From positions 1-64,000 of IMG/VR virus record IMGVR_UViG_3300035698_016817: 64,000 nucleotides of DNA; one strand, written 5' to 3'. The notes under the pieces were generated by a model, which was not told where the DNA came from, ran no database searches, and was given only the letters and a program-made list of their open reading frames with translations. This stretch comes from a virus. Its lineage: Duplodnaviria > Heunggongvirae > Uroviricota > Caudoviricetes > Crassvirales. Position numbers and translations under genes: made by a program. This document shows, piece after piece, positions 11,171 to 30,500 of the stretch (position 1 is its first letter; every line of letters starts with the position of its first letter).

Positions 11171-11569
11171 ATGACAAAGGATCAAGCAGAAGACATATTT
11201 AAAAACGCTTCCTTACAGAAGCCAGGTGAAGAAATTACTTATTTAGAAAGTTACGCGTTTGGATTAGGTATTAACTCTCGTAGAGAAATGATTATGTCAA
11301 TAGCAGTTGGTAGCGTTGTCGTTTTTAGGGTTATTTGTGAGATTCCAATTAGACTTGTTCTGGACGCTGACAAGGTTGCATTAACAGCTTACAGAGACAA
11401 AATGAGATGGGAGTTTGTAATCTCAATAGTAGCGGCCGGAGTTCGTAAATTAACTTTTACAGAAGAAAAAACTCTGGATTCAATTAAACCGAAAGAAGAT
11501 GATAGAGAGCCGAAACGAATCAGTAAACCTATCGTTATGCCAAATCAGATTATACCTTTCAGATTTTGA
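11171..11569 (+). CDS. hypothetical protein (132 aa)
   Basis: ORF whose 3' end overlaps the next ORF in another frame. Confidence 0.4.
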   Translation: MTKDQAEDIFKNASLQKPGEEITYLESYAFGLGINSRREMIMSIAVGSVVVFRVICEIPIRLVLDADKVALTAYRDKMRWEFVISIVAAGVRKLTFTEEKTLDSIKPKEDDREPKRISKPIVMPNQIIPFRF

Positions 11570-12470
11570 TATTTTCAAAAAGTATTGCGTGCCTTTTTCA
11601 AAAGAAGGAAAGAAGTTTAGTTCTGAATTAAGAGACGATCCTAAGCCTTCAGCGATGATCTCACAAAGAGGTGAAAAGTTGAGGTACATAGATTTTGGAT
11701 ATTCTGAGCATAGATTTGACTCAATTAGCTACGTGCAATACAAGTTTAATCTTGGCTTTATGGATGTTCTTAAGCTCATAGATCATGACTTTGCTCTTGG
11801 TCTGGGGAAAGGAACAGTACAGATGAAGAAAAGGTTTGTTGAAAGCAGGCCAAAACAAGTACCTAAAATTAAGACCGTGATACAGATAAAGGCTAGGCCC
11901 CTGACAAGATTAGATATGGAGTTTTGGGGTCAATACCATATCACCAAAGAGACGCTAAGTATGTATCACGTGGTTCCTATTAGCTACTTCTGGATTAATG
12001 GTCAAAGATTTAAAGCAGACCTGTTGGCTTACGCTTATTGTGAATACGGAAACAGAATTAAGATTTATCAACCTTTAAGCGATAGAAAATGGTTTTCAAA
12101 CGTAAACACACACGACATTCAAGGCCTATACGAGCTGCCAGTGATGGGTTCGAAAGTTATTTTGACCTCTTCCTTAAAAGATGTAATGGCTTTATCGGAA
12201 TCTACTATCCACGCTTGTGCGCTACAGTCAGAGATGATGATGCCTCACCCGAAAGCGATAAAGCTTCTTCAAAGGAAGTTTAAAGAGGTTGTCGTTTTGT
12301 ATGATAACGATTACGATAAGGACAAGAATCCTGGTCAAACAATGGCTCTTAAGATATGCGAAAAGTATAATCTTAGAAACATAGTAATACCTGAAAGATT
12401 TCAATCAAAAGATCCTTCAGATTTAATACTCACTCACGGCCCATACGTGGCCTATAATTTATTCAAATGA
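11499..12470 (+). CDS. DnaG-family primase-like protein (Toprim domain); the real start may be the ATG near 11654
   Basis: Toprim DxD motif VVVLYDNDYDKDKNPGQ and the preceding strand VILTSSLKDVMAL. No zinc-finger seen. N-terminal 70 nt overlaps the previous ORF. Confidence 0.5.
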   Translation: MIESRNESVNLSLCQIRLYLSDFDIFKKYCVPFSKEGKKFSSELRDDPKPSAMISQRGEKLRYIDFGYSEHRFDSISYVQYKFNLGFMDVLKLIDHDFALGLGKGTVQMKKRFVESRPKQVPKIKTVIQIKARPLTRLDMEFWGQYHITKETLSMYHVVPISYFWINGQRFKADLLAYAYCEYGNRIKIYQPLSDRKWFSNVNTHDIQGLYELPVMGSKVILTSSLKDVMALSESTIHACALQSEMMMPHPKAIKLLQRKFKEVVVLYDNDYDKDKNPGQTMALKICEKYNLRNIVIPERFQSKDPSDLILTHGPYVAYNLFK

Positions 12471-12769: not shown

Positions 12770-12965
12770 TGCACACTCAACAAGAAGGCGGTAACTAAAA
12801 GAAGCCACACATCATGATAGAACTAATACAAGAATTTCACTGCTTTAGCGAAGAAATAAAACTCGCATTTATCTGCTTTTCCTCTGCGCTTGGTCTTGGC
12901 CTTATTTACGCCACGATTGAAATTTCGTCAGTGTTTTTCAGGTCTATTGCTAAAATCATACGGGG

Positions 12966-13406
12966 ATGATTGGATTCAAAAAGAAAGGAAAGTCTCATAC
13001 AAAAGCAGTTAAGACTGTAGTTGATGGGATTCAATTTCAATCGAAATTAGAAGTTTACGTTTACCACGCTTTGAAAGCAGCAAAGATTCCTGCTGATTAT
13101 GAGAAGCATTCCTACGTTTTGATCCAGGGTTTTAAATCTGGTATTGAAACGTGGACGAAATGGAAAGGGGTTTACAGAGGTAGATTCAATAAAGTCCAAC
13201 CGATTACCTACAAGCCGGATTTTGTTTGTCCGACAGAACAATGGGTAATAGAAGTTAAAGGAAGAAAATTTCCAAGCTTCATGATGAGATGGAAATTGTT
13301 TCTCAGGCACTTAACAATGCGAGAGATGAACACAACCGTCTATTTAGTTTCTAGTGAAAAAGAAGCTAAAGAAGCAATTATTGACATTCAGAAATATTTT
13401 AAATGA
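12966..13406 (+). CDS. PD-(D/E)xK nuclease, DUF1064-like (resolvase-like small endonuclease)
   Basis: Pattern FQSKLEvyvYhaLK ... YKPDFVCP ... WVIEVKG matches the D ... E-x-K core of DUF1064/Vsr-like phage nucleases. Stop overlaps the GHKL ATPase start. Confidence 0.55.
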   Translation: MIGFKKKGKSHTKAVKTVVDGIQFQSKLEVYVYHALKAAKIPADYEKHSYVLIQGFKSGIETWTKWKGVYRGRFNKVQPITYKPDFVCPTEQWVIEVKGRKFPSFMMRWKLFLRHLTMREMNTTVYLVSSEKEAKEAIIDIQKYFK

Positions 13407-16123
13407 GCATAAAACAAATTGATACTCATGATGGAAAAGTGAAAGGTGTAGCAAAAAGACTTGACTCAGGTTCTGAGAAAATGATTTACGACATCCTTCA
13501 AAAGTCACAATACTCTACTCCTATACCTTCAACGGTAAGGGAGCTAGTGACTAACGCTTGCGATGCGCAACGTGAAAAAGAGATTGCAATTGATATCCTG
13601 AGCGGTAAAGCAAAGGAAGAAGACTATTACATTCGGAGGGATGGAGACGCTTACAGGTCTTCTAATTTCGATAAAGAGTACTATGATTTCAATTGGCTTG
13701 ACAAGACCATAAATCATGTTGAGATTCAATACATTAAGAATCATGGTACTGGATTTTGTGACACGTTTAAAGTCATAGATTTTGGCGTTGGTATAGGGCC
13801 TAAAAGGCTAGAAGGAATGATTTCTTTGGGTTATTCAACCAAGAGGAATACTTCTGAAGGCTTTGGTGCTTTTGGATTGGGAGCTAAAGTTGCTTTGTCA
13901 ACTAACGTTCCTTATTACACGGTTGACACGGTTTATAATGGAAAAAGGTTTTTGATAGAGTGTTCTTCATACACTACAAAGTCTAAAGTTGGAAAGTTTG
14001 ATCACGCGGGAACTGAAAGAAAATTCATCTTAATTGATGATGAAAAATTCTTTTATGAAGACGTCACAGAATTGAATCACACAATTGTAAGCTTTGGAGT
14101 TAAAAGGCATAACAGAACCGCTTTTCAGGAGGCAATTGAGGAACAATTAATTTACATTCCTGGCGTAACCTTGACCAAAATTGACACGGAGAAGAACCCA
14201 CCATCTAAAGAAAGTTCTAAGATTGAAGTTCCTACGCTGTACAATTCGAGGTCATTGGTCTTAAGCCAAGACACTGTATTTAGTAAGCCTCACATCGTTA
14301 TAGTTAAGAACTCTACTGATAAAGCCGGTATCAATTATGGGCCTGTTGACTTCAAGGAATTGGAGATGCAGGAAATGTTCGGTTCTATTGGTTTTAAATG
14401 TCCAATGCGGCAGACTTATAGAGACGATGATGGAGTTGAGCATGTAGTTCAAGAAGGAGTTTCAGTAACTCCGTCTAGGGAAAAAGTAATATGGGATGAT
14501 CCTACAAAAGCGTTTATTCAAACGGTAATTAAGTTAGCCGGAACTGAAGCCACAGCCATAGTTGAGAATGAGTTGTCTACGGAGACAGATTTCCTTGAGT
14601 GGATAAACAAGTGTCGCGAGACCTTCTCAAGAAAAGGTCATGCTTCAGTCCTCGGACGATTATCAAATATTATTGACTTGACGTCATTATCGCCAAAGTT
14701 TGGAACAAGTAAGTTCATTCGATACACTCATTTTTCAAAGATGTTTCCTGGGATTGTATTCGAGAAGATTACTGGGTATCACGGCAAAAAGCCAAAGAGA
14801 ACAGTTGTTGATTCTTGGGGTGAAATAGCTTCGCTATCAAACTTGTACGAGAAGGACGCCAATTACTCTCCAGCTAAAGACATTTATCTTTGTGTAACGA
14901 GAGGCTTAGGTTCCTTTATCACAGTGAAGCCGGTGTATCCTGAGGATGAAGCTGAATTTAACGAGCTTAATCTTTTCACTGAGGAAGAGAAAGAAGCTGC
15001 AGTAGCTAAAACCAAAGAAATTTGGTCTTACATCAAGAAAAGCAAAGCCCTTAAAAGTTACGCTGAAATTGAAGTTCCTAAAGAAGCTAAAGAAGCAATT
15101 GAGAAAGAGATTGAAGACGTTGAAGAAAAGGAAGTTGACAATCTTTCTCCTTCAGAAAGACGTAAATTAGAAAGTCGAGAAGTTGGCTACACTGTACGTT
15201 TAGATCAAAGCAAGGTGCATTCTAGTGTCAAAGCTGTTAGAGATGAGCCTTGGGTTCTGGATAAAGTAGAACCGAAAAGAATCGATTTGCTTTACACGAC
15301 CAAAGAGCTTTACTACGCTACAAGTGATGACAAAGAGCGGCTATTTGATGTAGGCCGAATGATTGAAGGTTTGATGCCCACTTCGCTTGAAGTTTACGGT
15401 CATAATAGAAACTATATGAGAAAAGAGCCATCGATGTTTGGCATCAGTAGTTCGATTCATTATCGAAATTCTAAAGATCAGTTGATTAATGTTAATGCAT
15501 TTAAAGATAAGCCTCAGTTTATCCAGATACGCAGAGATTTAGTCAAGAAGATTCCTGCTGCTTCAGAAATGATGCACATTGATGATTTCACGCTAACTAG
15601 AACACCGGAAGATGCTTACACGACACACCCGATGCTAGTACATGCTTTCACAGCTAGGATGATTGGTGAAGATTGGGCTATCAAATTTGGAAAGTTCATG
15701 GCTCACTTTAAACAAGTTGACAAGCAGATGTATGACAAATACATTAAGCTAGAAAATTACATGAAGCCTTTTCGTGACAGGAAGGGCATCACGCAAGACA
15801 CTAGCCTTACAAAAGAGCTTGACAAGTTGTGGCAATTTCAGCAATTTTGCATGTTCCATGATGAGAAAGAGATCAAGATTAGAAGCATGCAAGACTTTGT
15901 TCTTTGCGATGTGAAAGGAGCTATTGTGGTTGATATGGAATTCCTGAATCTTTACAAAGAATTGATGGATTATGCGGAAGGAGTTTCCGGATTACTTAAT
16001 ATGTTACCAGATGAAGTTTATACTGACAGCTTAGCTGTTGTAGAGATTCAAAGGTTTTTAAAAGCCTCGGACAGAAGTAATTGGAAGTGGGACGACCCTG
16101 TAAATTCCGTACCTTCAGAGTAA
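13403..16123 (+). CDS. GHKL-superfamily (Bergerat-fold) ATPase, 906 aa, Hsp90/MORC-like motif pattern
   Basis: N-box ELVTNACDA, G1 box VIDFGVGIG, G2 box GAFGLGAKVA in the first 160 aa. Long C-terminal extension with an EAKEAIEKEIEDVEEKE coiled segment. Confidence 0.7.
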   Translation: MSIKQIDTHDGKVKGVAKRLDSGSEKMIYDILQKSQYSTPIPSTVRELVTNACDAQREKEIAIDILSGKAKEEDYYIRRDGDAYRSSNFDKEYYDFNWLDKTINHVEIQYIKNHGTGFCDTFKVIDFGVGIGPKRLEGMISLGYSTKRNTSEGFGAFGLGAKVALSTNVPYYTVDTVYNGKRFLIECSSYTTKSKVGKFDHAGTERKFILIDDEKFFYEDVTELNHTIVSFGVKRHNRTAFQEAIEEQLIYIPGVTLTKIDTEKNPPSKESSKIEVPTLYNSRSLVLSQDTVFSKPHIVIVKNSTDKAGINYGPVDFKELEMQEMFGSIGFKCPMRQTYRDDDGVEHVVQEGVSVTPSREKVIWDDPTKAFIQTVIKLAGTEATAIVENELSTETDFLEWINKCRETFSRKGHASVLGRLSNIIDLTSLSPKFGTSKFIRYTHFSKMFPGIVFEKITGYHGKKPKRTVVDSWGEIASLSNLYEKDANYSPAKDIYLCVTRGLGSFITVKPVYPEDEAEFNELNLFTEEEKEAAVAKTKEIWSYIKKSKALKSYAEIEVPKEAKEAIEKEIEDVEEKEVDNLSPSERRKLESREVGYTVRLDQSKVHSSVKAVRDEPWVLDKVEPKRIDLLYTTKELYYATSDDKERLFDVGRMIEGLMPTSLEVYGHNRNYMRKEPSMFGISSSIHYRNSKDQLINVNAFKDKPQFIQIRRDLVKKIPAASEMMHIDDFTLTRTPEDAYTTHPMLVHAFTARMIGEDWAIKFGKFMAHFKQVDKQMYDKYIKLENYMKPFRDRKGITQDTSLTKELDKLWQFQQFCMFHDEKEIKIRSMQDFVLCDVKGAIVVDMEFLNLYKELMDYAEGVSGLLNMLPDEVYTDSLAVVEIQRFLKASDRSNWKWDDPVNSVPSE

Positions 16124-16128
16124 GAAAA

Positions 16129-16172
16129 AATTATAAACAAACAAATTATAAACAAACAAATACACGACTATG
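16129..16172 (+). promoter_or_regulatory. conserved start-proximal element with tandem ATTATAAACAAACAA duplication (site 3 of 3)
   Basis: AATTATAAACAAACAAATTATAAACAAACAAATACACGACTATG. Confidence 0.45.
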
Positions 16173-17345
16173 ATAACGATAAATGTTATTGATAAAATGA
16201 TCGTTGGCAGTATTGGTGAAGAGGGGTTTTCAATTCCTTACACTAAAGAGCGATACGATACCCTTGATGGTTTCGAGGAGGAGTTGGCAAAATGCGCAAC
16301 TCCAGAGGAATACAATAAAGTTTTGGCCAAGGCTAAGCAACTTTGTGCGGAAGTAACCGAGGGCATGATTGAGACAGAATGTGAATTCATTACTGTTGAT
16401 CCTAAGACTCACAAATACTTCTTGAAGTACAACAAGGTTATTTCAGACATTGCGATGCCTCAAGCGCTTGTTGATCGAATTTTGGAATCTGTAGACAAAG
16501 ATCTTCCTTTCCTTCCTCTTGTTAAGATGTGGGTACGTTTTCTTCGTAACCCTAACTTGAGAAAGAAAAACAAGGGAGGGAAGTTTGCAAAGAAATTTTT
16601 CAATTTCATTAACATTACTTACGTCAACCCAGAGTTGAAAGCTAAGTTGATGGAAGAAGGTGGTTTTAACGATGAAGTTGCTTCTAAACGTGCGACTATG
16701 TATCAAATGAAAATCACCAAGGAAGGGTTGCTAAACGGGTACAAAGTATCTTGTGAGGTAATGCACAAGTTTGAAGCTGATTCAAATGGTCAACCTCAAA
16801 GAGTTGATCGTTACTTACGTACGTTTGATGTAAACACTGGGAAGATTACTGGAACAGGTTTGCCTGACACCGTTGAAGAACGTTTGTTTGAGCCTGCTAT
16901 TCAGGGTCAGTCTGGAGATGCGTTTTCTTGTTCTGGTCAGCACGGTTTTCCTGCTGATGGACACTTCATCAAAGTTGGTTGTCTTCACGCTCTTGATAGC
17001 TGGGACAAAGTAAACATTGATGACAGCAAAAGCTGTGTTCCTGGTCTTCACGTTGGAGGCTTGAACTACATTGATGGTATCCGTGGAGAAATCCACAGCG
17101 TATTTATTGACCCAATGCATGTTGGGGCTGTTCCAGATGATTCAATAGGAGCGCTTCGTTGTAAGCAATACTTTGTACATGGGTCTCTTGCTGGTGTAAA
17201 TGGAAGCATTTACCACAGTTCAGATTACGCTTCAACAACTGATGCTGAATGGAAATCAATGCTTTCTGAAGCTATTTTGTTGAAAAACGAAGAGCTTAAA
17301 AAAGCAGAGCAAGGTTTAGACAACTTGAAAGCGCTTACTTCATAA
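16170..17345 (+). CDS. hypothetical protein (391 aa), His/Cys-rich C-terminal half
   Basis: ORF preceded by a tandem ATTATAAACAAACAA repeat and the ACACGACTATG motif, and followed by a terminator. Confidence 0.5.
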   Translation: MITINVIDKMIVGSIGEEGFSIPYTKERYDTLDGFEEELAKCATPEEYNKVLAKAKQLCAEVTEGMIETECEFITVDPKTHKYFLKYNKVISDIAMPQALVDRILESVDKDLPFLPLVKMWVRFLRNPNLRKKNKGGKFAKKFFNFINITYVNPELKAKLMEEGGFNDEVASKRATMYQMKITKEGLLNGYKVSCEVMHKFEADSNGQPQRVDRYLRTFDVNTGKITGTGLPDTVEERLFEPAIQGQSGDAFSCSGQHGFPADGHFIKVGCLHALDSWDKVNIDDSKSCVPGLHVGGLNYIDGIRGEIHSVFIDPMHVGAVPDDSIGALRCKQYFVHGSLAGVNGSIYHSSDYASTTDAEWKSMLSEAILLKNEELKKAEQGLDNLKALTS

Positions 17346-19957: not shown

Positions 19958-20329
19958 ATGTCTACAGAATTAGAAGGAATGGAAGGTGCCTTAGCGGACT
20001 CGTTAAGAAGAGGGTCAAAACAGATCCGTAGCGCAAGAGCGTTGGCAATCGCTGAAAGCACCGAAATGGTGTACAAGCGTAAAATGGAAGATATTGAGAT
20101 GAAGCTTAAGCGCATGCGCAGAGAGCAAGATTCTCAACTAGATCTTAGCCCAGACAACACTACAAGTTTGATCTTGGCCAAAGATTTCGATGAGATAGCT
20201 TTCATCGACAATGATCTTGATTATAGCATCAAGATTCGCGAAGAAGAGATTCGCCTCAAACTTGCACAAGAACGTTATACATTCCTGTTTGGGACTGTAG
20301 AAGATAAATCAATAAAAACTAATTCGTAA
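19958..20329 (+). CDS. hypothetical protein (123 aa), first gene of a four-gene coupled cassette
   Basis: ORF with TAATG overlap to the vWA gene. Charged, predicted helical. Confidence 0.45.
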   Translation: MSTELEGMEGALADSLRRGSKQIRSARALAIAESTEMVYKRKMEDIEMKLKRMRREQDSQLDLSPDNTTSLILAKDFDEIAFIDNDLDYSIKIREEEIRLKLAQERYTFLFGTVEDKSIKTNS

Positions 20330-21237
20330 TGGGAGGAGGATCGTATTCAGTATCAAATTCAATATTAAGCCGTGACGCTGTAAACTCACACACCGGTAAC
20401 ACCTACAGAAATGCTCCAACAAAAGAGCTTTTTAAGGAAACAAAAATTCATCAAAATCTAGATCCTAGAGGGGTCGCATTCAGAGAGTGCCGTGACAACG
20501 CTGATCATCCAAACGCTATTCCTTTGCAGGTTTACTTGGATGTTACAGGAAGCATGGGTCACATTCCTGTTAACTTCATTCGTGATGGATTGCCAACTAT
20601 GATGGGAACTTTGCTTCAAGCTGGAGTTCCTGATACCGCTCTAATGTTTGGAGCAATTGGTGATCACGAGTATGACAGAGCCCCTCTTCAGGTTGGGCAA
20701 TTTGAAGCAGACGATGAGCTTTTAGATGTTCACCTTAAGAACACTTACCTCGAAGGTGGAGGTGGCGGAAACAGAGGAGAGAGCTACGCTTTAGCTTGGG
20801 CCTTTGCTGGAAGACACGTTAAAACTGACGCTTGGGAAAAGAGAAAACAAAAAGGATTTGTCTTCACGATTGGTGACGAAGCGTTTTTGAATCATTACCC
20901 GAAAGAAGCTTTTGACAAAATTCAAGGTGAAGTTTCGGTAGCTCAAGGTGTTTCTTCTGCAGCTCAATTGTTAGAGTTGGCTGAAGAAACAAATCACGTG
21001 TTTCACATTCATGTTGATCATGGAAGACCCGTTGATTCAGCTTGGAGAGAATTGCTTGGAGATAATCTACTTATAGTGGTAGATTATCTGAAGATTCCTG
21101 AGCTTATTGCTGAGAAGATTCTTGAATTTTCTGCAGATTTCGGTAAGAAGATTGTAGAAAGTGATCCTATCATTAAAGCTGAAGGAGCTATCACCGTAGG
21201 TGATTTGCCTTCATCTGAGACAACCATTAAGCTTTAA
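20329..21237 (+). CDS. von Willebrand factor A (vWA) domain protein
   Basis: MIDAS motif YLDVTGSMG, downstream FVFTIGDEAF (hhhhTDG-like), and a Gly-rich EGGGGGNRGE loop. Confidence 0.6.
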   Translation: MGGGSYSVSNSILSRDAVNSHTGNTYRNAPTKELFKETKIHQNLDPRGVAFRECRDNADHPNAIPLQVYLDVTGSMGHIPVNFIRDGLPTMMGTLLQAGVPDTALMFGAIGDHEYDRAPLQVGQFEADDELLDVHLKNTYLEGGGGGNRGESYALAWAFAGRHVKTDAWEKRKQKGFVFTIGDEAFLNHYPKEAFDKIQGEVSVAQGVSSAAQLLELAEETNHVFHIHVDHGRPVDSAWRELLGDNLLIVVDYLKIPELIAEKILEFSADFGKKIVESDPIIKAEGAITVGDLPSSETTIKL

Positions 21238-22350
21238 ATGAGGGCCCAAGTAGTTTTGGGTCTTGGCTATGGAGACGAGGGAAAAGGTCTTACGACTGCT
21301 TTCCTTGTTTCAAAGGCTAAGAACCCTGCAGTTATTCGATTCAATGGTGGGCATCAAGCTGGCCACACAGTTGTCAAAGACGGTATCAGTCACGTTTCTT
21401 CGTCTTATGGTTCAGGAGTTCTTTATGGGGCTCTCACGTACATCATGAACAGTTGCGTGATTTATCCAAGAGCCATAATTAATGAAAACCACGTTTTGAA
21501 GTCTAAGATGAAAGTCATCCCGCCTTTGCACGTGCACCCATTTACTCCAGTAACTACTCCTTTTGAGTTGATGGTAAATCAAAAAATGGAAGAGCTACGC
21601 GGAACAAAAAGACACGGCAGTGTGGGCGTGGGATTTGGAGAGACTCTTCAAAGAGAGGAAAATCATTATCATCTTTTTGCTCAAGACCTTCTATTTCCTT
21701 CAATTCTCAAGTTGAAATTGAAGAACATACAGGAGAATTGCTATCCCAACTTTGATTTTGGTCGGGAGAAAATGGACGAGTTCCTTGAAGAGTGTAGAAA
21801 AACAGCAGAGATCATCAAGATTGACAATGGAAACAACGTTTTCTTTGATTATGAAGAATTGATTTTTGAAGGCGCTCAAGGTGTTCTATTGGATCAAAAA
21901 TTTGGTTTCTTTCCAAACGTGACTAGGTCAAACACTACTTCTCAAAACATAAATCAATTTTTAGCAGCACTTGAAGTGGTGCCAGAGATGTATTACGTAA
22001 CGAGAAGCTATGTAACCAGACACGGAGCTGGCCCAATGCTTAACGAAGACAATGATATTCTTTTGAATAACGCAGAAAAGGAGACCAACAAATCGGACCC
22101 ATTTCAAGGCGATCTTCGTTATGGACAATTAGATGTTGAAGCTATAAATTACGCTTTAATGTGTGACATGCAGTACTCGAACTTTCCAACGATTGACCGA
22201 CATTTAGTCGTAACTTGTATGGACCAGTTTGACTTAAATTTAGCGCCTGTTTTAGACGAAATAGAAATGAACTTTACCAGCATCTTAACCTCTCATGGTC
22301 CGGAAGCCAAACATGTAACAGATTACAAACCTTTAACAATTTCAAAATGA
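21238..22350 (+). CDS. adenylosuccinate synthetase homolog (PurA family; short form, PurZ-like candidate)
   Basis: N-terminal P-loop VVLGLGYGDEGKG (PurA: VVLGTQWGDEGKG). Also RFNGGHQAGHTVV (PurA: RYQGGHNAGHTLV), FEGAQGVLLD ... VTRSNTTS (PurA: FEGAQGTLLD ... VTSSNTTA) and YVTRHGAGP. At 370 aa it lacks about 60 C-terminal residues relative to cellular PurA. Confidence 0.8.
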   Translation: MRAQVVLGLGYGDEGKGLTTAFLVSKAKNPAVIRFNGGHQAGHTVVKDGISHVSSSYGSGVLYGALTYIMNSCVIYPRAIINENHVLKSKMKVIPPLHVHPFTPVTTPFELMVNQKMEELRGTKRHGSVGVGFGETLQREENHYHLFAQDLLFPSILKLKLKNIQENCYPNFDFGREKMDEFLEECRKTAEIIKIDNGNNVFFDYEELIFEGAQGVLLDQKFGFFPNVTRSNTTSQNINQFLAALEVVPEMYYVTRSYVTRHGAGPMLNEDNDILLNNAEKETNKSDPFQGDLRYGQLDVEAINYALMCDMQYSNFPTIDRHLVVTCMDQFDLNLAPVLDEIEMNFTSILTSHGPEAKHVTDYKPLTISK

Positions 22351-22732: not shown

Positions 22733-22770
22733 AAAAAGCCACTCCTTCACAGGGGTGGCTTTTTTTTTTA
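22733..22770. terminator. bidirectional rho-independent terminator between convergent gene blocks
   Basis: AAAAAGCCACTCC-ttcaca-GGGGTGGCTTTTTTTTTT. A-run on one side and T-run on the other, so it can act on both strands. The stop codon of the - strand 1604-aa ORF lies inside the T-run. Confidence 0.75.
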
Positions 22771-25700
22771 CTTGAGTAACCATCTAATGTTTGAAGTTCC
22801 ATAAACAAAACTTGCAAGATAGTATCCTGGAGGAGTGGTGTCGTTTGGACTGTTTTCTCCCATTATCTTATCTCTAATCTCATCAGAGCCATTAGTAACC
22901 AAGTGGCCGAACATCTCAAGCATTCCAAATAATGGAATACCAGACTTGTTTAAGTATAAAGCTTCAAGCGGGTTGATGAACATAGCAAGTTCCATATTGA
23001 TTCTTCCCATCAAGTCCATCAGTTTAGTATGGCCCTTGTTTAAAAGCTTGTCATCTTCATCTCCGGCCGCCATACCCATTAATCCAGTTAATAGTAACCA
23101 AGAGAAAACATATCTAAGTTCGGCCAAGGCTGAGCTGATGTTTTGCTCTTGAAATTGCATGTAAGCTTCAAGATCCATGTTTTTCAATTTGGGACTTGTA
23201 GTGTTACGTTGCATCTCCTTCATTTGCTCTTCGTAAATGGCTTTGGTTTTGTCTGCTTTCTTTTGGTCTTTATCGCTCCAATTTTTATCGTCTTTAAGCT
23301 TCTGAATTTTTTTAGCTGAAGAAGTATAACCTTTTACAGAGACGAGCATCGTAACCAGCTCCTTTATGCCTTTAGCAGTAGAACCCATCACTTCATACCA
23401 AGCCATTTCTTGTAGCTCAACAGGAACATCGTCTTTATCTAGTTCTTTTCCTGAGTTTACGGTTTGTCTTATCAGAGTTCTGTATCTACCCTCCATCAAT
23501 CTGTCCGCCCAGATGTTGTATTTGATTTTTCCAAACCTATCTTGAAGCATTTCTGGCATCCAGCCTTTAAACTGCATCCCGATTGAAAACATCACGTTAG
23601 ATTCATAAAGCGCAAACATGTAAGGAGACATATTCCCCCTGACACCTTTAACCTCTTCCATAAATCTCATTTTCATTTCAAATCTTACTGCTTTTGGAAT
23701 TCCTCCCATTACGTCGTCTTTGAAAGTCGCTGTTTCAATTAAGCTCTTTTCTCCTTCTGGAAGATCTTCTAGCCTGGCCAGTTTTCCTTCCTTGCTAATT
23801 CCGTGAGTGTATAGCATAGCTATGAGCAATCTTCTGTCTCCCATTTCGTCTGCGGGAATCAACGGATAGTACAGGTAAACGCTGTCCATATACTTTGAAA
23901 GTATATCTCCCCTCATAGACTGTTCTGATTCAAATCTAAAATCCTTTGAGTGAACATCGAAGAACTTTGAGAAGGCCTTGTACTTGGCGTTGTCCTGGTG
24001 CCACAAGGTCATTCCTTTCATAAGGGTTTCTTGTGAGTAGTTAGGATTGTCAACTGCTTTAGCTCTTCTGAATGCTATAGCTGAAGTTGCTGCACCGGCT
24101 GCTGCCTTAATTGGCAAGGTCATTTTAATCTTACCGTACTGAACTTTCATTTGCATTAAAAGCTTAGCAACAGAAACTGTTTTGCCATTCATTTTAAATG
24201 AACCAAGCTCTAGCTTGCTGATGTTGCCGTAAAGCAAAACATCCATCATTGTGTCAAACTCAGACAGCGTTCCTTCAGAAAGGTCTTTTGTGTCTATTCT
24301 TCCGCCTTTATAAAGGAACTTTCCGCCCTTCATTCTTACTTCTCTTTGGATTGAGAGCAAGCTTCTAATCATTTGTATTCTTGCTTCAGCATCGTCTAAA
24401 GCAACGTGCTTGTAAATAGCGTCTCCAAACAGAAGCATCGCTCTTCCTAAGTCCATAGAGATTCGACTTTCGTCAAACTCTCCCTTGTCATTAAGAATTG
24501 GCTTAAGGTGGCCAAGAGGCACTCTTTTTACTGTGTCTTCTCCAATTTGCTCTTCGTTTTCTTCTTCAATAGTAATGCTGTGCATCATATTTTTAGCAAA
24601 CGTGCTTACTGCTCCCTTACCTTCAAATCCAGCTTCAATTGACCCAATTAATATAGAAGGTATTGTGTTTGTGTTGATGTATCTACCATCAAGCAAATCG
24701 TTAAAATCAGCAATTTGACTTTTCCAAGCAGTGTAAAAAGCTAAGAGTGGTTCATTCCCAACTTGGTTAAGTTCTCCGTATTCCTTACTGTAAAGATCTT
24801 TGGCTTTTTCTGGTTTAACTTCTAAGTACTTAAGTGAAGAGCGATGAACCCAAGCGTCAACGTTGTCCTTGTCAAAGACATCGTTGCTTTTTTCGAATTG
24901 AGCCATTTTTGTTTTATACCCATAACTCGTTTTAGTAATGAACTCTTCAATTAACTTCTTGCTTTTTCTTTCCTTGGCTTTTTTGTAACGCTCTTTAGCG
25001 CCTTCCATGATTTGGTAGTTCTCTCTGGTCCATTTAACAGCCTTTAAAACGTCTGCGTCTCTACCGGAAGCAGCGTCAGCATACATTTCTTTACGCTTGG
25101 CGTTGAACTCTTCTTTGAACATGTTTACCAATCTCATACCCATACTTGTTGGGGTAGCAAGTTTTTTCATTGCTTGCCTGGTAGACATCCCTTTTCCAGC
25201 AGCCCATTCTTCTACTTTTTTGTTAAGTGGAGTCCACTTTCTAACTAGGTCTCTATATCTTTCTTCGCGGTCTTCTTGAGCTGCAACATACACGTACATC
25301 GCTGCTTTGAAATATTCGTTGTCTACAGAAGCCACGTCAGTCATCCACTGATCATTTCTGATTGGAACTGAATTTGCGTCTAAATCAACGAAGTCAGTTG
25401 GAAGATCTTCGTAAAGTCTTTTTCTACCTTCTAATCTAAGGTCGTTTACAACCTGGTCTACTTTCTCTGATATCAAAGCCATCTTAATACGGAAAGAAGC
25501 TTTCTCTTTTTTGTCTTTGATGTCTTTTAGCTTATACCCAGTTATTGCAGTGGTATTTGCGTAAAGAGAAAGAGCGTTTTGCAACCCTACTATGTCTTTC
25601 ATTGACAAGTATTCAGGGCTGTCTTTTTTCTTGATTTTTAAACCGTCTTGAGCGTACTTGATTAAAGAACCAAGCTCACTTCTTGTTGCGACCATGCTTC

Positions 25701-27582
25701 CAACATTTGCAAGTTCTTTCAGTGTAGTTCTGATTGTATTCAACTCACGAATTACTGCTTCGGTTTTTTTCCTGCCTTTAAGCTCGTCTCTACGCTGGTG
25801 AAACTCTTGAACTTTTTTCTCCATCAATCCTTCAGGAAGTTCATTTGCAACTGGATACTGCATCAACTCTGGATCTATAGTTGAATCCATGTTAAAGTAA
25901 GCAATAGTGTCTGTAATGCCGGCTCCTTTAGCGTACGCCATTCGTACGTGTCCGGGAATAAGCCTAGAGGTTTTAACTCCGCTCACGTTGTACATTTCTA
26001 TTACTGTTCGAACGTAAAACATCATTTGATCTTCGTACCCTTCGCCTTTGGGCCCACGAAATGGATCTAAACGCAGAAGGTATTCCCCTCCGACCAATTC
26101 AGATTCCGTGTTTTTGGGAGAAATAAACTTGTAGTCATAAACGTGAGCGTATCCATCAGGGTCTACAAATAGCAAATCCACGGTTCCTGCAGTCTTTTCC
26201 TTTTTAGAGTAAAGCTTAATCTCTTGATATATGTTGACTTTTTCTTTTGGCCCAAGTCCTTTGGCCCTGTCTTTCAATATTGCTTTTAGAGTGTCAGTCG
26301 TATGATGAAACATAGACTCTGGAATGCCAGACTCTTTCTTGATTTGCGCCAAGGTTTTTTTTGGGCTCTCCTCGAATAAGATAAGGTTAAACTTGCCTTT
26401 AAATTCTTTTTCCTGAACCATTAAAGGAATCAGAGCTTCCATTGTCCCGTGCAATTTTGTTCCATTGCTACTAAGTATTCTAGAACGTTTTCTACTTCCA
26501 ATTTCTTTAGCCTCCTCAATTCCACCTACACTCCACATAAAAGCAATAGAAGATCTGTCTGTAGCTCTTCTTTCTATCGGAACTCCATCAATATGATATC
26601 TAGCAACCAAGCTATCTTCATCCTCGAATAAATCAAGGTATTTAGTATCGATCTTACCAGCATAATAATCTTTTTTAAATGATTCAATTCCAACTCGTTT
26701 CTGAGTATCTGCGATTAAATCATTCACTCTTTCTTGAATGTTTCCTGCAGAACGAAATATTGTGTTTCTTTCCCAACCATTCAGCGCTTCTCTGTGTGCT
26801 CCTAGGTCTTTATTGAGCATCTCTAATGAAGCTCTCTTATATGGGTCAGATAGATTGAGTTTGTCCTTAAGCCATTGAACAGCTCGTTTCCACCACCTGG
26901 CTTCTCTTTGCTGTTCGGCTTCTTTCATCATCCCTGGCTCAAGAATAGTTTTCAAGACTCGTTTAGTGATTGCTTCGTCTATAAAGTCTTGCTCAGTATA
27001 TCCCATTCCTTCATGAGAACCGAGCACTTCAGTATACTCTTCAGTTCCTAGTATTCTAGTAGCCATGCTCTTGTAAAGAGGACTATCCATCACAGACAGA
27101 GCTGCGATATAGAAGTGAATGTATTCTTCAGTAGGCCTATCAGCGTTTCCTTGTAAATACTGAATTGATCTATTTGTAATGTCAGCTGCAGCCACTCCTT
27201 TTAAAGGGTTTCCATCCTTGTCTTTCAAGCTCTCAACGATATTCTCGTCAATCTTAAAGTCTCTGAATACTTGTCTGAGGGAAGAAAGAACTTCTTCTTC
27301 TAAAGAGTCTGCAACTACGTCTTGAAGAGGCTTTTTAGAGAGTATTTCTCTTCTTGTATCTACTTGAAAGGCAATCTTTTCATCTACGATTACTTGACCT
27401 TGAACTACGGTAAATGGAATTCCATCGATGTCTTCTTCCCTAGCCAAATCAATAGCCATCTTCATGGCTTCTTGCACAAGCAAAGACTCTGGAGCTGTAA
27501 CTATTAAAGTGTTTCCAACTTCCTTGGCTAGTTTGTTTTCTATCAATCGGTTTTTTACCTGAGTATTTAAGCTACAAGCCAT
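22768..27582 (-). CDS. very large virion-associated protein (1604 aa), last gene of the - strand operon; possible ejected or RNAP-associated protein
   Basis: Uninterrupted 4.8-kb ORF whose start ATG abuts the stop of the 4191-aa ORF (TAAATG). Possible PD-(D/E)xK-like pattern VDLLFVDPDG...VYDYK near aa 469-485. Confidence 0.65.
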   Translation of the reverse strand: MACSLNTQVKNRLIENKLAKEVGNTLIVTAPESLLVQEAMKMAIDLAREEDIDGIPFTVVQGQVIVDEKIAFQVDTRREILSKKPLQDVVADSLEEEVLSSLRQVFRDFKIDENIVESLKDKDGNPLKGVAAADITNRSIQYLQGNADRPTEEYIHFYIAALSVMDSPLYKSMATRILGTEEYTEVLGSHEGMGYTEQDFIDEAITKRVLKTILEPGMMKEAEQQREARWWKRAVQWLKDKLNLSDPYKRASLEMLNKDLGAHREALNGWERNTIFRSAGNIQERVNDLIADTQKRVGIESFKKDYYAGKIDTKYLDLFEDEDSLVARYHIDGVPIERRATDRSSIAFMWSVGGIEEAKEIGSRKRSRILSSNGTKLHGTMEALIPLMVQEKEFKGKFNLILFEESPKKTLAQIKKESGIPESMFHHTTDTLKAILKDRAKGLGPKEKVNIYQEIKLYSKKEKTAGTVDLLFVDPDGYAHVYDYKFISPKNTESELVGGEYLLRLDPFRGPKGEGYEDQMMFYVRTVIEMYNVSGVKTSRLIPGHVRMAYAKGAGITDTIAYFNMDSTIDPELMQYPVANELPEGLMEKKVQEFHQRRDELKGRKKTEAVIRELNTIRTTLKELANVGSMVATRSELGSLIKYAQDGLKIKKKDSPEYLSMKDIVGLQNALSLYANTTAITGYKLKDIKDKKEKASFRIKMALISEKVDQVVNDLRLEGRKRLYEDLPTDFVDLDANSVPIRNDQWMTDVASVDNEYFKAAMYVYVAAQEDREERYRDLVRKWTPLNKKVEEWAAGKGMSTRQAMKKLATPTSMGMRLVNMFKEEFNAKRKEMYADAASGRDADVLKAVKWTRENYQIMEGAKERYKKAKERKSKKLIEEFITKTSYGYKTKMAQFEKSNDVFDKDNVDAWVHRSSLKYLEVKPEKAKDLYSKEYGELNQVGNEPLLAFYTAWKSQIADFNDLLDGRYINTNTIPSILIGSIEAGFEGKGAVSTFAKNMMHSITIEEENEEQIGEDTVKRVPLGHLKPILNDKGEFDESRISMDLGRAMLLFGDAIYKHVALDDAEARIQMIRSLLSIQREVRMKGGKFLYKGGRIDTKDLSEGTLSEFDTMMDVLLYGNISKLELGSFKMNGKTVSVAKLLMQMKVQYGKIKMTLPIKAAAGAATSAIAFRRAKAVDNPNYSQETLMKGMTLWHQDNAKYKAFSKFFDVHSKDFRFESEQSMRGDILSKYMDSVYLYYPLIPADEMGDRRLLIAMLYTHGISKEGKLARLEDLPEGEKSLIETATFKDDVMGGIPKAVRFEMKMRFMEEVKGVRGNMSPYMFALYESNVMFSIGMQFKGWMPEMLQDRFGKIKYNIWADRLMEGRYRTLIRQTVNSGKELDKDDVPVELQEMAWYEVMGSTAKGIKELVTMLVSVKGYTSSAKKIQKLKDDKNWSDKDQKKADKTKAIYEEQMKEMQRNTTSPKLKNMDLEAYMQFQEQNISSALAELRYVFSWLLLTGLMGMAAGDEDDKLLNKGHTKLMDLMGRINMELAMFINPLEALYLNKSGIPLFGMLEMFGHLVTNGSDEIRDKIMGENSPNDTTPPGYYLASFVYGTSNIRWLLK

Positions 27583-30500
27583 TTAACATTCTTCTTTAGA
27601 TACAGTTTTTCTTGAGTCCATTTCCAACCCAGTTGGCGCAGAGTAAGTGTTCATTTGACCCTTAAGTCTTTTATGATTTCCTGCGTCTAATTTGACAACA
27701 TCTTGTCGTCCTTCTAGTGCCGAAGATATGGACTTTCCTCTGTTGACTATTTTAAAGAGTTTTTGTCCGATCACCGCGCCCATTTCTGATTTAACATTTT
27801 GCTTAACAAACAAATGGTGAGCAACGTCTTGGTCGTCTTGACTTCTTATTGGAGGTACGGTGTAGTTATTCCAGATAAAGTTTTCTGCAAACTTTAAAGA
27901 AAATACTTCGTCTGCTCCTTGAGTGCTAGAGAAAGGAGTTAGGCCTTCCATGTTCCCTTTGTAGTTAGGTAAGATTGAGTTTGTCAATCTAGCGTAAGCT
28001 TCTCCTGGTATTCTATCCAAGAAAGAAAATGGAGAATTTATTGTCCCAGACTGCAATATGGCTGCCTGAAGGACCTTGTAAGCAATATTCGTGTTGTTTA
28101 TTGCGTCATACTCAATTAATGCGTTGTAAGCATCTACAAGTATAGCGTCATCCCACATATTCATTGCTTTGAATTGAGGCTCAACATAATCGTTTTGACC
28201 GGTGTTTTTAGGGTCTTCTTCTATGTAAGGAATTAAGAAGTCTAAAAGCTCATTTTTGTTTAGTGGATGAGACTCATCGTTTTGAATTTTAGATACAAGC
28301 TTTGCAAACGTTTTTGAACCATACATTGAAGCGTGGGCCGTGTCTTTTAAAGCCACTCCATCATCGTTATTAATGTTTTGCAGAATAGTTGTAATGTAGT
28401 ACTGCTCTAGTCTCTCTAAGACTCTAATTTTCTCATCCATAGACATTTTAAAGTTCTTAGGGTGAGTCAGAGAGAAAACAAATTCAGAGTATACTTGACG
28501 GAAATTATCGACAAGTCTTTGATCATTTAAGAACTTATTGTAATCCTGTTTGAAAGATTCTTCTTGATCTTTCTCTGTGAAAAACATGTTCTTAAATATG
28601 TCATCGGCCATGTTGGTAAAGTCTTTCATTGCAGACATGTATGACACTCCTTTTTCAAGAATTTTTTCAACGCCAGGGAAGACATTTCTTCCAATAACGT
28701 TTTCGTATTGAGAACGAACTAGTCTAGCGTGCGCTCTACTTTTAATCAATTTAGTGTCAACTGATTGAGCCGTAATTACAGACGTTATGTCTTCTCCAAC
28801 TTGAATGTAAGCTAGAAAGCTGTCAAGTATTTGAGACTGAAGCGTTCTTTGAGTGTCATCCAAATCTTCAATTGGAGTCTCAATCATCGCAGTCATAATT
28901 TCATCAGTAAGATATTGCTCTTCAGCACTTATTTTGCTTTCTGAAGAAGGAGCAAAAGTTTTAAGCGTTTCATTGTATACATCAACGTCTGTTTGATTTT
29001 GTTCTCCGTTTTTGCCTTTGATAGACGTCCTGGCTACAGAAGTTCTAGAATCTCTTTTTTTTATAAACTCGCGGATAATTGGTTGATTAAAGAACAGCGC
29101 AGTTGTTTCAAGTGGAACTCCATTTCTCAATAAAGAGAAGTATGCTGGAGCCGTTCCTGGAGTAATGTTTAGAATGTGCAAGTAAGGGTTTGCCACAACA
29201 TCTACCGCTAAGTTCAAGAACTCAGATAGTATTTCAGTGATCTTAACTCCGTTGACGTTCTCGATCTCTCCCATGGTAGAAAAAGGATTTGCTATTTCTC
29301 CCATTTCGTTAAATTCAACATGAAATTTATTCATCTCTGCTTCTACCCCCTGAGGATTAAACCATAGAATAGGACGGATTTTATTTCCATCAGGAAGTTC
29401 GTAAACAGTTTCCATGTTTAGGCTAGTTCCAGCAAGTTGTGATTGAACGTGATGCTTAGCCGTAACAGCTGCAATACCAAGCACTTTATCCGCTTGAGTG
29501 TAAGCTCTACCAACTTCAGCCATGTAGGGAATTGTTGTTTCCTTGTGCATGTTTACAACGTTTCCTAACTGAACAATATCAAACCCAGACTTTTCAAACA
29601 TCAGCAATAGACTGTCCTTCATGTTTTCCACGTTAGGAATAGCTACTGGATTCAGGTGCTCTTCTCTCCTTCCTTTATCAGAAAGAAGCTTAATTGAAGT
29701 CTCGATTACTCCGTTCTCTAGGGCTTTGATGCTTTGAACATCAAAGACTCCTTTGTCAGGGTTTTCGTTTCTCCACGTTTCGAAAGGCTTAGGGTAAAGC
29801 ATCTCTTTTTCTTCAGTCATAAACTCAGGAACAGCCTTTCTAATCTCGTCCATCTGAGCTATTAACTCGTCTATTTCTTCTTGATCAGCGTTTTCCGGTA
29901 CTTCTTCAGGAGTATACTCTTCGTTTGCTATACCTGGAAAACTGTTTAAAAACAGCACTGCCATTCTATCAGCTTCAATTGGCATGTCTTGAAGCCTATT
30001 CAATTTGGCTCTCAATCCTTTGAAATCAATGTAGTGATGCATGAACTTTCTTACAGTTCTGTCAACATTTGACTTGTACCAGTCCTCGATATTAGTGTAA
30101 AACTGCTCTTTTTGAGGAGCACCGTTCTTCATGTAATAGTTCAAGAACATTGTCGTCATCTTATCAATGTCGAAGTCACTACCAGACTTGAACACAACGC
30201 CAGGCGGGATTACAATTTTGGTCCCTGCATGCTTAGGTAAGAAAGCTTTGATCCTTAGGATTTCAATTGAGTGAATACCATCTGTTGGAATACGAATTCC
30301 AATAGCGTCAAGCAATTCACTAGAGTTAGGAACTGGAACGCCGTTGATAGTGATTTCTCCATCTTTAATTTGCACGTCAGTACCCGGAGCAATAAGCTCT
30401 TTGTACATGTGTGGCATCATGGTTTCAACTACGTAGTTCCCGTCTTCTTCGTACACTTTTAGTTCTTCACTGTAAAGTATACCGTTTTCATTTTCGCTTA

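What the first reader, a model, noticed from the sequence alone, without database searches (positions are those of the whole stretch)
12966..16123. PD-(D/E)xK nuclease translationally coupled to a 906-aa GHKL (Bergerat-fold) ATPase
A small DUF1064-like nuclease (D...EVK core) ends with its stop overlapping the start (ATGA) of a large protein. The first 160 aa of that protein carry the canonical GHKL N-box (ELVTNACDA), G1 (DFGVGIG) and G2 (GAFGLGAK) motifs, patterned most like Hsp90/HtpG or MORC rather than GyrB or MutL. Large GHKL ATPases are uncommon in phage replication modules. A nuclease plus GHKL pair could be a DNA-topology or anti-defence module, or a phage chaperone.
Basis: partly seen in the sequence, partly recalled or inferred. 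Interest (0 to 1): 0.6.

Follow-up and report, generated by a model that had tools for sequence, protein, structure and literature searches.

The report
Divergent rIIA/rIIB pair, crAss-like phage
The large ATPase is a very divergent copy of the classic phage gene rIIA, and its real partner is the rIIB-like gene just downstream rather than the small nuclease upstream, so this is a known and widespread phage gene pair found in an uncultured marine crAss-like phage.

Summary
ORFs 12966..13406 (146 aa, DUF1064 PD-(D/E)xK nuclease) and 13403..16123 (906 aa) overlap by ATGA, and the large protein has intact GHKL N-box, G1 and G2 motifs. Its predicted fold is closest to Hsp90-family proteins.

The interpretation misses the identity of the large protein. 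It is an rIIA homologue: five PHROG RIIA families match, and the profile-profile comparison with rIIA of seven cultured phages gives 98.5-99% probability. The next gene (16170..17345, 391 aa) is an rIIB homologue (97.7% probability).

T4 rIIA has the same GHKL domain. rIIA homologues occur in 2,927 of 50,697 GenBank phage records, so large GHKL ATPases are not rare in phages. In six unrelated cultured phages rIIA is directly followed by rIIB, and DUF1064 is never nearby.

Among 73 distinct metagenomic relatives, another ORF separates the nuclease from rIIA in 51 of 69 loci. ATGA overlaps are routine in this gene block (4 of 17 junctions).

The window is a marine crAss-like phage. No cultured crAss-like phage matched these proteins in the searches run. 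Best reading: a counter-defence and membrane/replisome-associated rIIAB module, next to an unrelated Holliday-junction-resolvase-type nuclease. New member of a known kind; modest interest.

The parts
12966..13406 (+). DUF1064-family PD-(D/E)xK nuclease (146 aa), Holliday-junction-resolvase type. It is a neighbour in the replication/recombination module, not part of the rII pair.
   Evidence: Pfam DUF1064 E 2.5e-9. phrog_190 'Holliday junction resolvase' 2e-17. E29, D85, E96 and K98 conserved in 67 relatives.
13403..16123 (+). rIIA homologue (906 aa): N-terminal GHKL ATPase, a middle (transducer-like) domain, and a lineage-specific C-terminal region.
   Evidence: Five PHROG RIIA families, best phrog_612 at 6e-15 spanning aa 121-810. 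hhalign against 7 cultured-phage rIIA: 98.5% probability, E 1.5e-15. It is the only window ORF hit by the rIIA HMM, E 5e-11.
13520..14152 (+). GHKL (Bergerat-fold) ATP-binding domain, about aa 40-250. N-box RELVTNACDA at 13538-13567, G1 DFGVGIG at 13778-13798, G2 GAFGLGAK at 13865-13888.
14165..14557 (+). Beta-rich middle domain (about aa 255-385) shared with rIIA proteins. It ends in the invariant PSREK motif (P357-K361, nt 14471-14485), which matches S277-R278-E279 of T4 rIIA.
14558..16120 (+). C-terminal region (aa 386-906), mixed alpha/beta and specific to this lineage.
   Evidence: No profile similarity to the C-termini of cultured-phage rIIA (probability 0.1%). This fits the published 'highly variable C-terminal domain' (PMC7824862). 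Modelled at pLDDT mostly 70-90.
16124..16169 (+). 46-nt A-rich spacer between rIIA and rIIB. It holds a perfect 15-nt tandem duplication, ATTATAAACAAACAA, at 16130-16144 and 16145-16159.
   Evidence: Read directly from the sequence.
16170..17345 (+). rIIB homologue (391 aa). The conserved core is about aa 76-338, with an invariant C289-x-x-G-L-H294 motif (nt 17034-17051). The N-terminus differs from T4 rIIB (no HTH). The C-terminus is a long helix, aa 350-390.
   Evidence: PHROG RIIB families phrog_609 7e-7 and phrog_2886 3.5e-5. hhalign against 7 cultured-phage rIIB: 97.7% probability, E 2e-12. It is the only window ORF hit by the rIIB HMM, E 1e-8. Weak tblastn hits fall on annotated RIIB genes.

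Best explanation

Shown here:
- The 906-aa protein is homologous to rIIA over its first ~385 residues. This covers a complete GHKL ATP-binding domain and a second, beta-rich domain ending in the invariant PSRE motif.
- The predicted fold of this part is closest to the N+M domains of Hsp90-family proteins.
- The 391-aa protein shares the conserved core of rIIB.
- The two genes keep the order rIIA then rIIB, as in T4-like, N4-like, FelixO1-like, Vi1-like and jumbo phages.

Inferred from what is established for T4 (PMC10312443, PMC8594841, bioRxiv 10.1101/2025.11.20.689424):
- The pair is expressed early, together with the replication genes around it.
- It acts as a unit at the inner face of the host membrane or replisome. 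Neither protein has a transmembrane segment.
- It lets infection proceed in hosts that carry abortive-infection systems which collapse membrane energetics (RexAB-type).
- The price is that RIIB becomes a trigger that other host defences can sense (CARD-gasdermin, Tmn).

Inferred mechanism: rIIA works as a GHKL clamp. ATP binding closes the lid and dimerises the N-domains, and a middle-domain residue (probably R359 of PSREK, by analogy with the Hsp90 middle-domain arginine and the GyrB/MutL lysine) completes the active site. The divergent C-terminal region and rIIB would supply target specificity.

The upstream DUF1064 nuclease is a separate recombination enzyme of Holliday-junction-resolvase type. 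Its ATGA overlap with rIIA reflects operon compaction after loss of a small gene that most relatives still have at that position.
For: rIIA identity:
- Five PHROG RIIA families match.
- hhalign of the window family against 7 cultured-phage rIIA gives 98.5% probability, E 1.5e-15, over 275 columns. For the N-terminal halves alone it gives 99.0%, E 7e-18.
- BLASTP against T4 rIIA aligns the N-box at identical positions, aa 28-56.
- The reciprocal HMM hits this ORF only.
- Weak tblastn hits fall almost only on annotated rIIA genes.

rIIB identity.

GHKL is a property of rIIA in general: T4 rIIA scores on the same Pfam model, and PMC7824862 describes it.

Pairing:
- rIIA is directly followed by rIIB in six unrelated cultured phages, and the two genes are neighbours across the T4 genome ends.
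- In 65 distinct relatives where the downstream region was recovered, rIIB was always found. It is the direct neighbour in 44, and one inserted gene lies between them in 21.

Fold.

The nuclease is not the partner.

Function in T4 and related phages: PMC10312443, PMC8594841, PMC13001434 and bioRxiv 10.1101/2025.11.20.689424.
Against: - Similarity to characterised rIIA and rIIB is remote. There is no tblastn hit at E<=1e-5 to any GenBank phage, and pairwise BLASTP to T4 rIIA reaches only E 0.001.
- The C-terminal 520 residues of the rIIA-like protein match no known rIIA C-terminus.
- The rIIB-like protein lacks the N-terminal HTH seen in T4 RIIB.
- No function of rII genes has been tested in any Bacteroidota phage. 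RexAB itself is a lambda/E. coli system, so the actual host target here is unknown.
- Even in T4 the molecular mechanism is unresolved (PMC10312443).
- The pair sits inside the replication module, which fits a DNA-replication role as well as a defence role.
Confidence: 0.85

Rival explanations
1. One reading: the DUF1064 nuclease and the GHKL ATPase form a translationally coupled two-protein machine. This could be a DNA-topology or DNA-cleaving module resembling TopoVI or MutL, or a GHKL-plus-nuclease anti-defence pair.
For: - The ATGA overlap is real.
- Both genes are present, in this order, in all 80 related loci where the upstream region was recovered.
- GHKL ATPases do partner with nucleases in other systems (MutL, TopoVI). 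This point rests on established knowledge.
Against: - Only 1 of 69 distinct relatives has overlapping genes, and 51 of 69 have another ORF between them. That ORF varies from one lineage to another.
- The whole replication module is syntenic in these phages, so co-occurrence within the clade says little.
- In T4 and six other cultured phage lineages rIIA has no DUF1064 neighbour.
- The 906-aa protein has no Toprim, MutL C-terminal or other nuclease-partner domain.
- ATGA overlaps occur at 4 of 17 junctions in this block.
Confidence: 0.05
2. The large protein is a phage-encoded Hsp90-type chaperone that folds or assembles phage proteins, for example the giant virion proteins encoded in this window. 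On this view it would have no defence-related role, and rIIB would act as a co-chaperone or client adaptor.
For: - T4 rIIA's only PDB sequence hits are Hsp90 N-domains.
- Some database records label rIIA 'HSP90 family molecular chaperone'.
- The window encodes proteins of 4,191, 1,703 and 1,604 aa.
Against: - There is no match to the Pfam HSP90 family.
- The C-terminal region is unrelated to the Hsp90 C-domain, since matches end within about 340 residues.
- T4 rII mutants assemble normal virions on permissive hosts (classical genetics). Both genes are non-essential without RexAB (bioRxiv 10.1101/2025.11.20.689424).
Confidence: 0.05
3. The rIIA/rIIB pair acts mainly in DNA replication in this lineage, for example by anchoring the replisome to the membrane. 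Any counter-defence phenotype would be secondary.
For: - The pair lies between the primase/resolvase genes and the FEN exonuclease inside the replication module, in every one of about 80 relatives.
- RIIB is described as a membrane-anchoring replisome component expressed before replication (PMC13001434).
Against: - T4 rII genes are dispensable for replication on hosts without RexAB.
- The cultured marine crAss-like phage phi14:2 shares the crAss-type primase and replication-module genes but has no rIIA or rIIB in the 25-kb region examined.
- In other phages the pair sits among unrelated early genes.
Confidence: 0.05

Closest known systems
Bacteriophage T4 rIIA / rIIB (RIIA and RIIB 'lysis inhibitor' / protector from prophage-induced early lysis), with their homologues in N4-like (gp33/gp34-like), FelixO1-like, Vi1-like, Streptomyces and jumbo phages
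   Same: - Two adjacent genes on the same strand, in the order rIIA then rIIB.
- rIIA has an N-terminal GHKL domain with identical N-box, G1 and G2 residues, then a second domain ending in the invariant SRE motif.
- rIIA has a variable C-terminus.
- rIIB has the conserved core with the CxxGLH motif.
- Neither protein has a transmembrane segment.
- The genes lie among early/replication genes.
   Different: - Sequence identity is very low; homology is visible only with profiles.
- There is a ~45-residue insertion between the N-box and G1 (window aa 57-105).
- The rIIA-like protein is 906 aa against 725 in T4, and its 520-aa C-terminal region is unrelated.
- The rIIB-like protein lacks the T4 N-terminal HTH and adds a C-terminal long helix.
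- The host is probably a Bacteroidota species and the phage is crAss-like.
- A third of relatives carry an extra gene between the two.
Hsp90 family (HtpG, GRP94, TRAP1)
   Same: Best structural match for the first ~340 residues: a GHKL N-domain followed by a middle domain.
   Different: - No sequence-level membership (no Pfam HSP90 hit).
- The C-terminal part is different.
- No evidence of chaperone function.
- Partnered with rIIB.
GHL ATPase modules of type II topoisomerases, MutL and MORC/SMCHD1
   Different: No Toprim, no MutL C-terminal endonuclease domain, and no CW or coiled-coil modules. The neighbouring nuclease is not a conserved partner.
DUF1064 / phrog_190 phage Holliday-junction-resolvase-type nucleases (the upstream gene)
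   Same: Passes the Pfam cut-off, has a conserved E...D...ExK active site, and is located in a replication/recombination module.
   Different: Nothing notable. Cellulophaga phi14:2 has a RusA-type resolvase at the comparable position instead.

Membership tests
rIIA | N-terminal GHKL ATPase domain with N-box, G1 and G2 motifs | tested here: met
   Pfam HATPase_c_3 above cut-off. Motif residues invariant in 30 relatives and aligned to the same residues in 7 cultured-phage rIIA. T4 rIIA scores on the same model.
rIIA | Homology to bona fide rIIA beyond the generic GHKL core (second domain with the SRE motif) | tested here: met
   hhalign 98.5-99.0% probability, E 1.5e-15 and 7e-18, covering window aa 24-385 against T4 aa 24-300. 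PHROG phrog_612 match spans aa 121-810. The rIIA HMM hits only this ORF in the window.
rIIA | Encoded immediately upstream of rIIB on the same strand | tested here: met
   The spacer to the rIIB homologue is 46 nt. The same arrangement is seen in 6 unrelated cultured phages and in 44 of 65 distinct relatives; the other 21 have one inserted gene.
rIIA | Highly variable C-terminal region (PMC7824862) | tested here: met
   The C-terminal 520 aa show no profile similarity to the C-termini of cultured-phage rIIA.
rIIA/rIIB | Needed for growth on hosts with a RexAB-type abortive-infection system; membrane-associated | not testable with these tools
   Only a hydropathy scan was possible. It found no transmembrane segment in either protein. 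Function is known only from T-even phages.
rIIB | Conserved rIIB core domain with the invariant C-x-x-G-L-H motif | tested here: met
   hhalign 97.7% probability, E 2e-12, window aa 76-338 against T4 aa 140-305. C289, G292, L293 and H294 are invariant in the window family, and C252, G255, L256 and H257 in cultured-phage rIIB. PHROG RIIB hits.
rIIB | N-terminal helix-turn-helix as in T4 RIIB | tested here: not met
   T4 RIIB hits HTH_7 and HTH_28 at aa 7-50. The window protein has no HTH hit. Its modelled N-terminus is three beta strands plus a helical hairpin. The alignment to T4 starts only at T4 aa 140. rIIB lengths range from 247 to 527 aa in cultured phages, so this feature may not be general.
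Hsp90 | Sequence membership (Pfam HSP90), middle and C-terminal dimerisation domains | tested here: not met
Type IIA/IIB topoisomerase B subunit | Toprim domain or a partner DNA-cleavage subunit | tested here: not met
   No Toprim hit in the 906-aa protein. The only Toprim in the neighbourhood belongs to the primase at 11499..12470.
MutL | C-terminal dimerisation/endonuclease domain | tested here: not met
DUF1064 (PD-(D/E)xK nuclease) | Pfam model above cut-off with conserved D...ExK catalytic residues | tested here: met
   38 bits against a cut-off of 24.7. E29, D85, E96 and K98 are at least 90% conserved in 67 sequences.

The most novel reading that the evidence does not exclude
In this large clade of marine crAss-like phages the rIIAB pair has been built into the replication/recombination module, between the Holliday-junction resolvase and the flap exonuclease, and has acquired a new 520-residue C-terminal region. 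It may therefore work as an Hsp90-like ATP-driven clamp acting on the replisome or on recombination intermediates, possibly together with the DUF1064 nuclease, rather than as a RexAB-type counter-defence. The invariant Cys-x-x-Gly-Leu-His motif of rIIB could be a catalytic or metal-binding site that has not been recognised. If so, this lineage would offer a route to the long-unresolved biochemical activity of rII proteins.
Probability: 0.1. Interest if true: 0.6.

Novelty: new member of a known kind. Interest (0 to 1): 0.25.

Why it matters
rIIA and rIIB are among the most famous genes in molecular biology, yet their molecular mechanism is still unresolved. They are now known to counter one host defence (RexAB) and to trigger others (CARD-gasdermin, Tmn).

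This work shows that an abundant, completely unannotated family from marine metagenomes belongs to the rIIA/rIIB pair. At least 551 rIIA-like and 774 rIIB-like protein clusters were found, none of which carried a functional name (only 'hypothetical protein' where a source gave any). That extends the pair to crAss-like phages of probable Bacteroidota hosts, corrects their annotation, and adds very divergent sequences that sharpen the list of truly invariant residues: the GHKL motifs and PSRE in rIIA, and CxxGLH in rIIB.

It does not reveal a new kind of system. The nuclease-GHKL 'pair' that prompted the finding is a product of gene packing.

Tried and rejected
- Nucleotide (megablast) and tblastn (E<=1e-5) searches of the region and the 906-aa protein against 50,697 GenBank phages found nothing. 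Only permissive thresholds gave weak hits, which fell on rIIA and rIIB genes.
- A sequence search of the PDB with the 906-aa protein and with the nuclease found nothing.
- NCBIfam gave only a sub-threshold sacsin-like GHKL hit.
- The search for homologous proteins with T4 rIIA returned only 98-100% identical T-even copies and was useless for building a profile. I built the rIIA and rIIB profiles from seven annotated cultured-phage loci instead.
- The exact-sequence look-up of the window's own protein found no contig.
- A single-sequence scan of viral contigs found one locus only. The alignment-based scan gave 80.
- C-terminal region against rIIA C-termini: no similarity.
- A search for the relatives' intervening small gene elsewhere in the window found nothing.
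- I considered and rejected topoisomerase-like, MutL-like and true Hsp90 membership. There is no Toprim, MutL_C or HSP90 Pfam match.
- I did not use the search of protein representatives. Its top 150 hits would all have been close relatives and would not have changed the verdict.
Full report
**Observation.** The sequence reads AAATGAGC at the junction, so the nuclease stop and the ATG of the large ORF overlap by four bases.

The small protein passes Pfam's cut-off for DUF1064 and matches PHROG 190, annotated 'Holliday junction resolvase'. Its E29, D85, E96 and K98 are at least 90% conserved in 67 relatives.

The large protein passes the cut-off of Pfam HATPase_c_3 over aa 45-187. The residues of the N-box (E47, N51, D54), G1 (D126, G128, G130) and G2 (G155, G158, G160, K162) are invariant in a 30-member family alignment.

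**Identity of the large protein.** PHROGs gave the first lead. Five different 'RIIA lysis inhibitor' families match the 906-aa protein, the best (phrog_612, E 6e-15) across aa 121-810. The next gene downstream, 16170..17345 (391 aa), matches three 'RIIB' families.

I tested this in several independent ways:
- T4 rIIA itself scores on the same Pfam GHKL model at the same N-terminal position. BLASTP of the window protein against T4 rIIA aligns the N-box at identical residue numbers, 28-56.
- I built profiles from rIIA and rIIB of seven cultured phages from unrelated lineages: T4, Dinoroseobacter DFL12phi1, Shigella Sf17, Salmonella PST-D24, Pseudomonas MIJ3, Rhizobium RHph_Y2_11 and Vibrio 1.081.O. 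I compared these with family alignments of the window proteins.
- For rIIA, hhalign gives 98.5% probability, E 1.5e-15, over 275 columns, window aa 24-385 against T4 aa 24-300. For the N-terminal halves alone it gives 99.0%.
- For rIIB, hhalign gives 97.7% probability, E 2e-12, window aa 76-338 against T4 aa 140-305.
- In the reciprocal direction, HMMs of the cultured-phage rIIA and rIIB, run against all six-frame ORFs of the window, hit only these two ORFs (E 5e-11 and 1e-8).
- At permissive thresholds, the window proteins' weak tblastn hits in GenBank phages fall almost entirely on genes annotated rIIA or rIIB.

The alignment extends well beyond the generic GHKL core, up to an invariant P-S-R-E motif (window P357-E360; T4 S277-E279).

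**Fold.** An AlphaFold2 model of the 906-aa protein (mean pLDDT 76; the ATP lid, aa 143-160, is disordered) was compared with solved structures.
- Histidine kinases score no higher than 7.1.
- Foldseek's top nine hits are all full-length Hsp90-family chains.

The protein has no Toprim, HSP90 or MutL C-terminal Pfam match. It resembles these families in architecture but is not a member of any of them.

The C-terminal 520 residues have no profile similarity to the C-termini of cultured-phage rIIA. [quoted passage not shown]

**Which gene is the partner?** In the six cultured phages fetched with flanks, rIIA is always immediately followed by rIIB on the same strand. The upstream neighbour is different in each case: thioredoxin, a small membrane protein, a hypothetical protein, a P-loop NTPase and others. 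An HMM of the DUF1064 family finds nothing in any of these loci. In T4 the two rII genes are neighbours across the ends of the genome record.

For close relatives I collected 84 metagenomic loci. In every locus with enough flanking sequence the order is primase ... DUF1064 ... rIIA-like ... rIIB-like ... FEN exonuclease. After removing duplicates, 73 distinct proteins remain:
- The nuclease is the direct upstream neighbour in 18 of 69 loci, and overlaps rIIA in only 1.
- In 51 of 69 loci another ORF lies between them. That ORF is not the same in all lineages, and it has no counterpart anywhere in the window.
- rIIB is the direct downstream neighbour in 44 of 65 loci.
- In the other 21, a single ~286-aa gene is inserted between the two, annotated as Pfam SPL in one relative.

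Within the window's + strand block, 10 of 17 junctions overlap or abut. Four are the same ATGA overlap, including the one between the 51-aa ORF and the nuclease gene. The 'translational coupling' is therefore a general property of a compact operon, made possible here by loss of a small gene. It is not evidence for a nuclease-ATPase machine.

**How common is this?** T4 rIIA finds 2,927 of 50,697 GenBank phage records by tblastn, across T4-like, N4-like, FelixO1-like, Vi1-like, Streptomyces and jumbo phages. Some are labelled 'histidine kinase-like ATPase', 'GHKL domain containing protein' or 'HSP90 family'. The statement that large GHKL ATPases are uncommon in phages does not hold.

**Genomic context.** The major capsid protein and the primase of the window have their best matches, at about 30-33% identity, in crAss-like phages of Bacteroides, Flavobacterium and Cellulophaga. 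Relatives' contigs reach 80-94 kb and many come from Tara Oceans and other marine samples. The window also carries giant minus-strand ORFs. So this is an uncultured marine crAss-like phage, probably infecting Bacteroidota.

The cultured marine crAss-like phage Cellulophaga phi14:2 has, downstream of its primase, a RusA resolvase, a small ORF and an exonuclease. It has no rIIA, rIIB or DUF1064 homologue in that 25-kb region. No crAss-like or Bacteroides phage appeared among the listed weak rIIA hits. No relevant paper in the searched library links crAss-like phages with rIIA. None of the listed members of either protein family carries a functional name (only 'hypothetical protein' where a source gave any).

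**Mechanism.**
- Shown: homology, domain architecture, intact ATP-binding residues, conserved gene order, and absence of transmembrane segments.
- Inferred from T-even phages: rIIA and rIIB act together. They are dispensable on ordinary hosts but required on hosts expressing the RexAB abortive-infection system (PMC8594841; bioRxiv 10.1101/2025.11.20.689424). The way they block RexAB is still unclear (PMC10312443).
- RIIB is also the trigger that activates CARD-gasdermin and Tmn defences. It has been described as a membrane-associated replisome component (PMC10312443, PMC13001434).
- My mechanistic proposal is inference by analogy with other GHKL ATPases. I propose an ATP-driven N-terminal dimerising clamp, with R359 of the PSREK motif completing the active site, and with the C-terminal region and rIIB giving specificity. 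This is untested.

**Verdict.** The finding is a real and correctly described sequence feature, but its interpretation should be replaced. It is a very divergent rIIA/rIIB pair, lying next to an unrelated resolvase-type nuclease. It is a new member of a known kind. Its value is in annotation and in adding distant sequences to a classic but mechanistically unsolved gene pair. Interest is modest.

Noticed in passing
window 21238..22350 (+), with neighbour 20329..21237 (+): A 370-aa adenylosuccinate-synthetase homologue (Pfam Adenylsucc_synt 6e-45) whose best PHROG is phrog_1211, the PurZ-type '2-amino...adenylosuccinate synthetase' family (8e-61). The phage may replace adenine with 2-aminoadenine (Z-DNA base). 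The abutting 302-aa gene belongs to an unknown-function family (phrog_2971). A relative (L005) carries a MazG/PRA-PH-like gene in the same module.
   Followed up: partly
window 22768..49645 (-): A run of giant minus-strand ORFs of 1,604, 4,191, 706, 760 and 1,703 aa. The 4,191-aa protein has no Pfam hit and only one unknown-function PHROG match, at aa 45-476. Together with the crAss-like capsid protein (61230..62681) and primase, this marks the window as a marine crAss-like phage. The giant proteins may include the virion RNA polymerase typical of that group, but this was not tested.
   Followed up: partly
window 16130..16159 (+): A perfect 15-nt tandem duplication (ATTATAAACAAACAA, twice) fills most of the 46-nt spacer between rIIA and rIIB. 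The spacer is A-rich and has no obvious Shine-Dalgarno sequence, as expected for Bacteroidota hosts.
   Followed up: no
relatives, e.g. L006 10733..11596; 21 of 65 distinct loci: About a third of relatives carry one extra ~286-aa gene inserted between rIIA and rIIB. In L006 it is recorded as Pfam PF20903 (SPL). The window lacks it.
   Followed up: partly
window 12814..12969 (+): A 51-aa ORF with one strongly hydrophobic, transmembrane-like segment (aa 17-35). Its stop overlaps the start of the nuclease gene by ATGA, just as the nuclease gene overlaps rIIA.
   Followed up: no
window 17034..17051 (+); T4 rIIB aa 252-257: A Cys-x-x-Gly-Leu-His motif is invariant in both the window's rIIB-like family (28 sequences) and seven rIIB proteins from unrelated cultured phages. 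It may be a catalytic or metal-binding site in a domain that has no Pfam model and no solved structural relative.
   Followed up: partly
L093 (Cellulophaga phage phi14:2, NC_021806 9037-33990): Downstream of its primase, the cultured marine crAss-like phage has a RusA-type resolvase, then a small ORF, then an exonuclease. There is no rIIA/rIIB pair and no DUF1064 gene in that region. Resolvase type and presence of rII therefore both differ between these crAss-like lineages.
   Followed up: yes
window 13571..13717 (+), aa 57-105 of the rIIA-like protein: Relative to cultured-phage rIIA, this family has a ~45-residue insertion between the N-box and the G1 box (REKEIAIDILSGK...NWLDKTI). Many of its positions are invariant within the family, and part of it is modelled with low confidence.
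   Followed up: no
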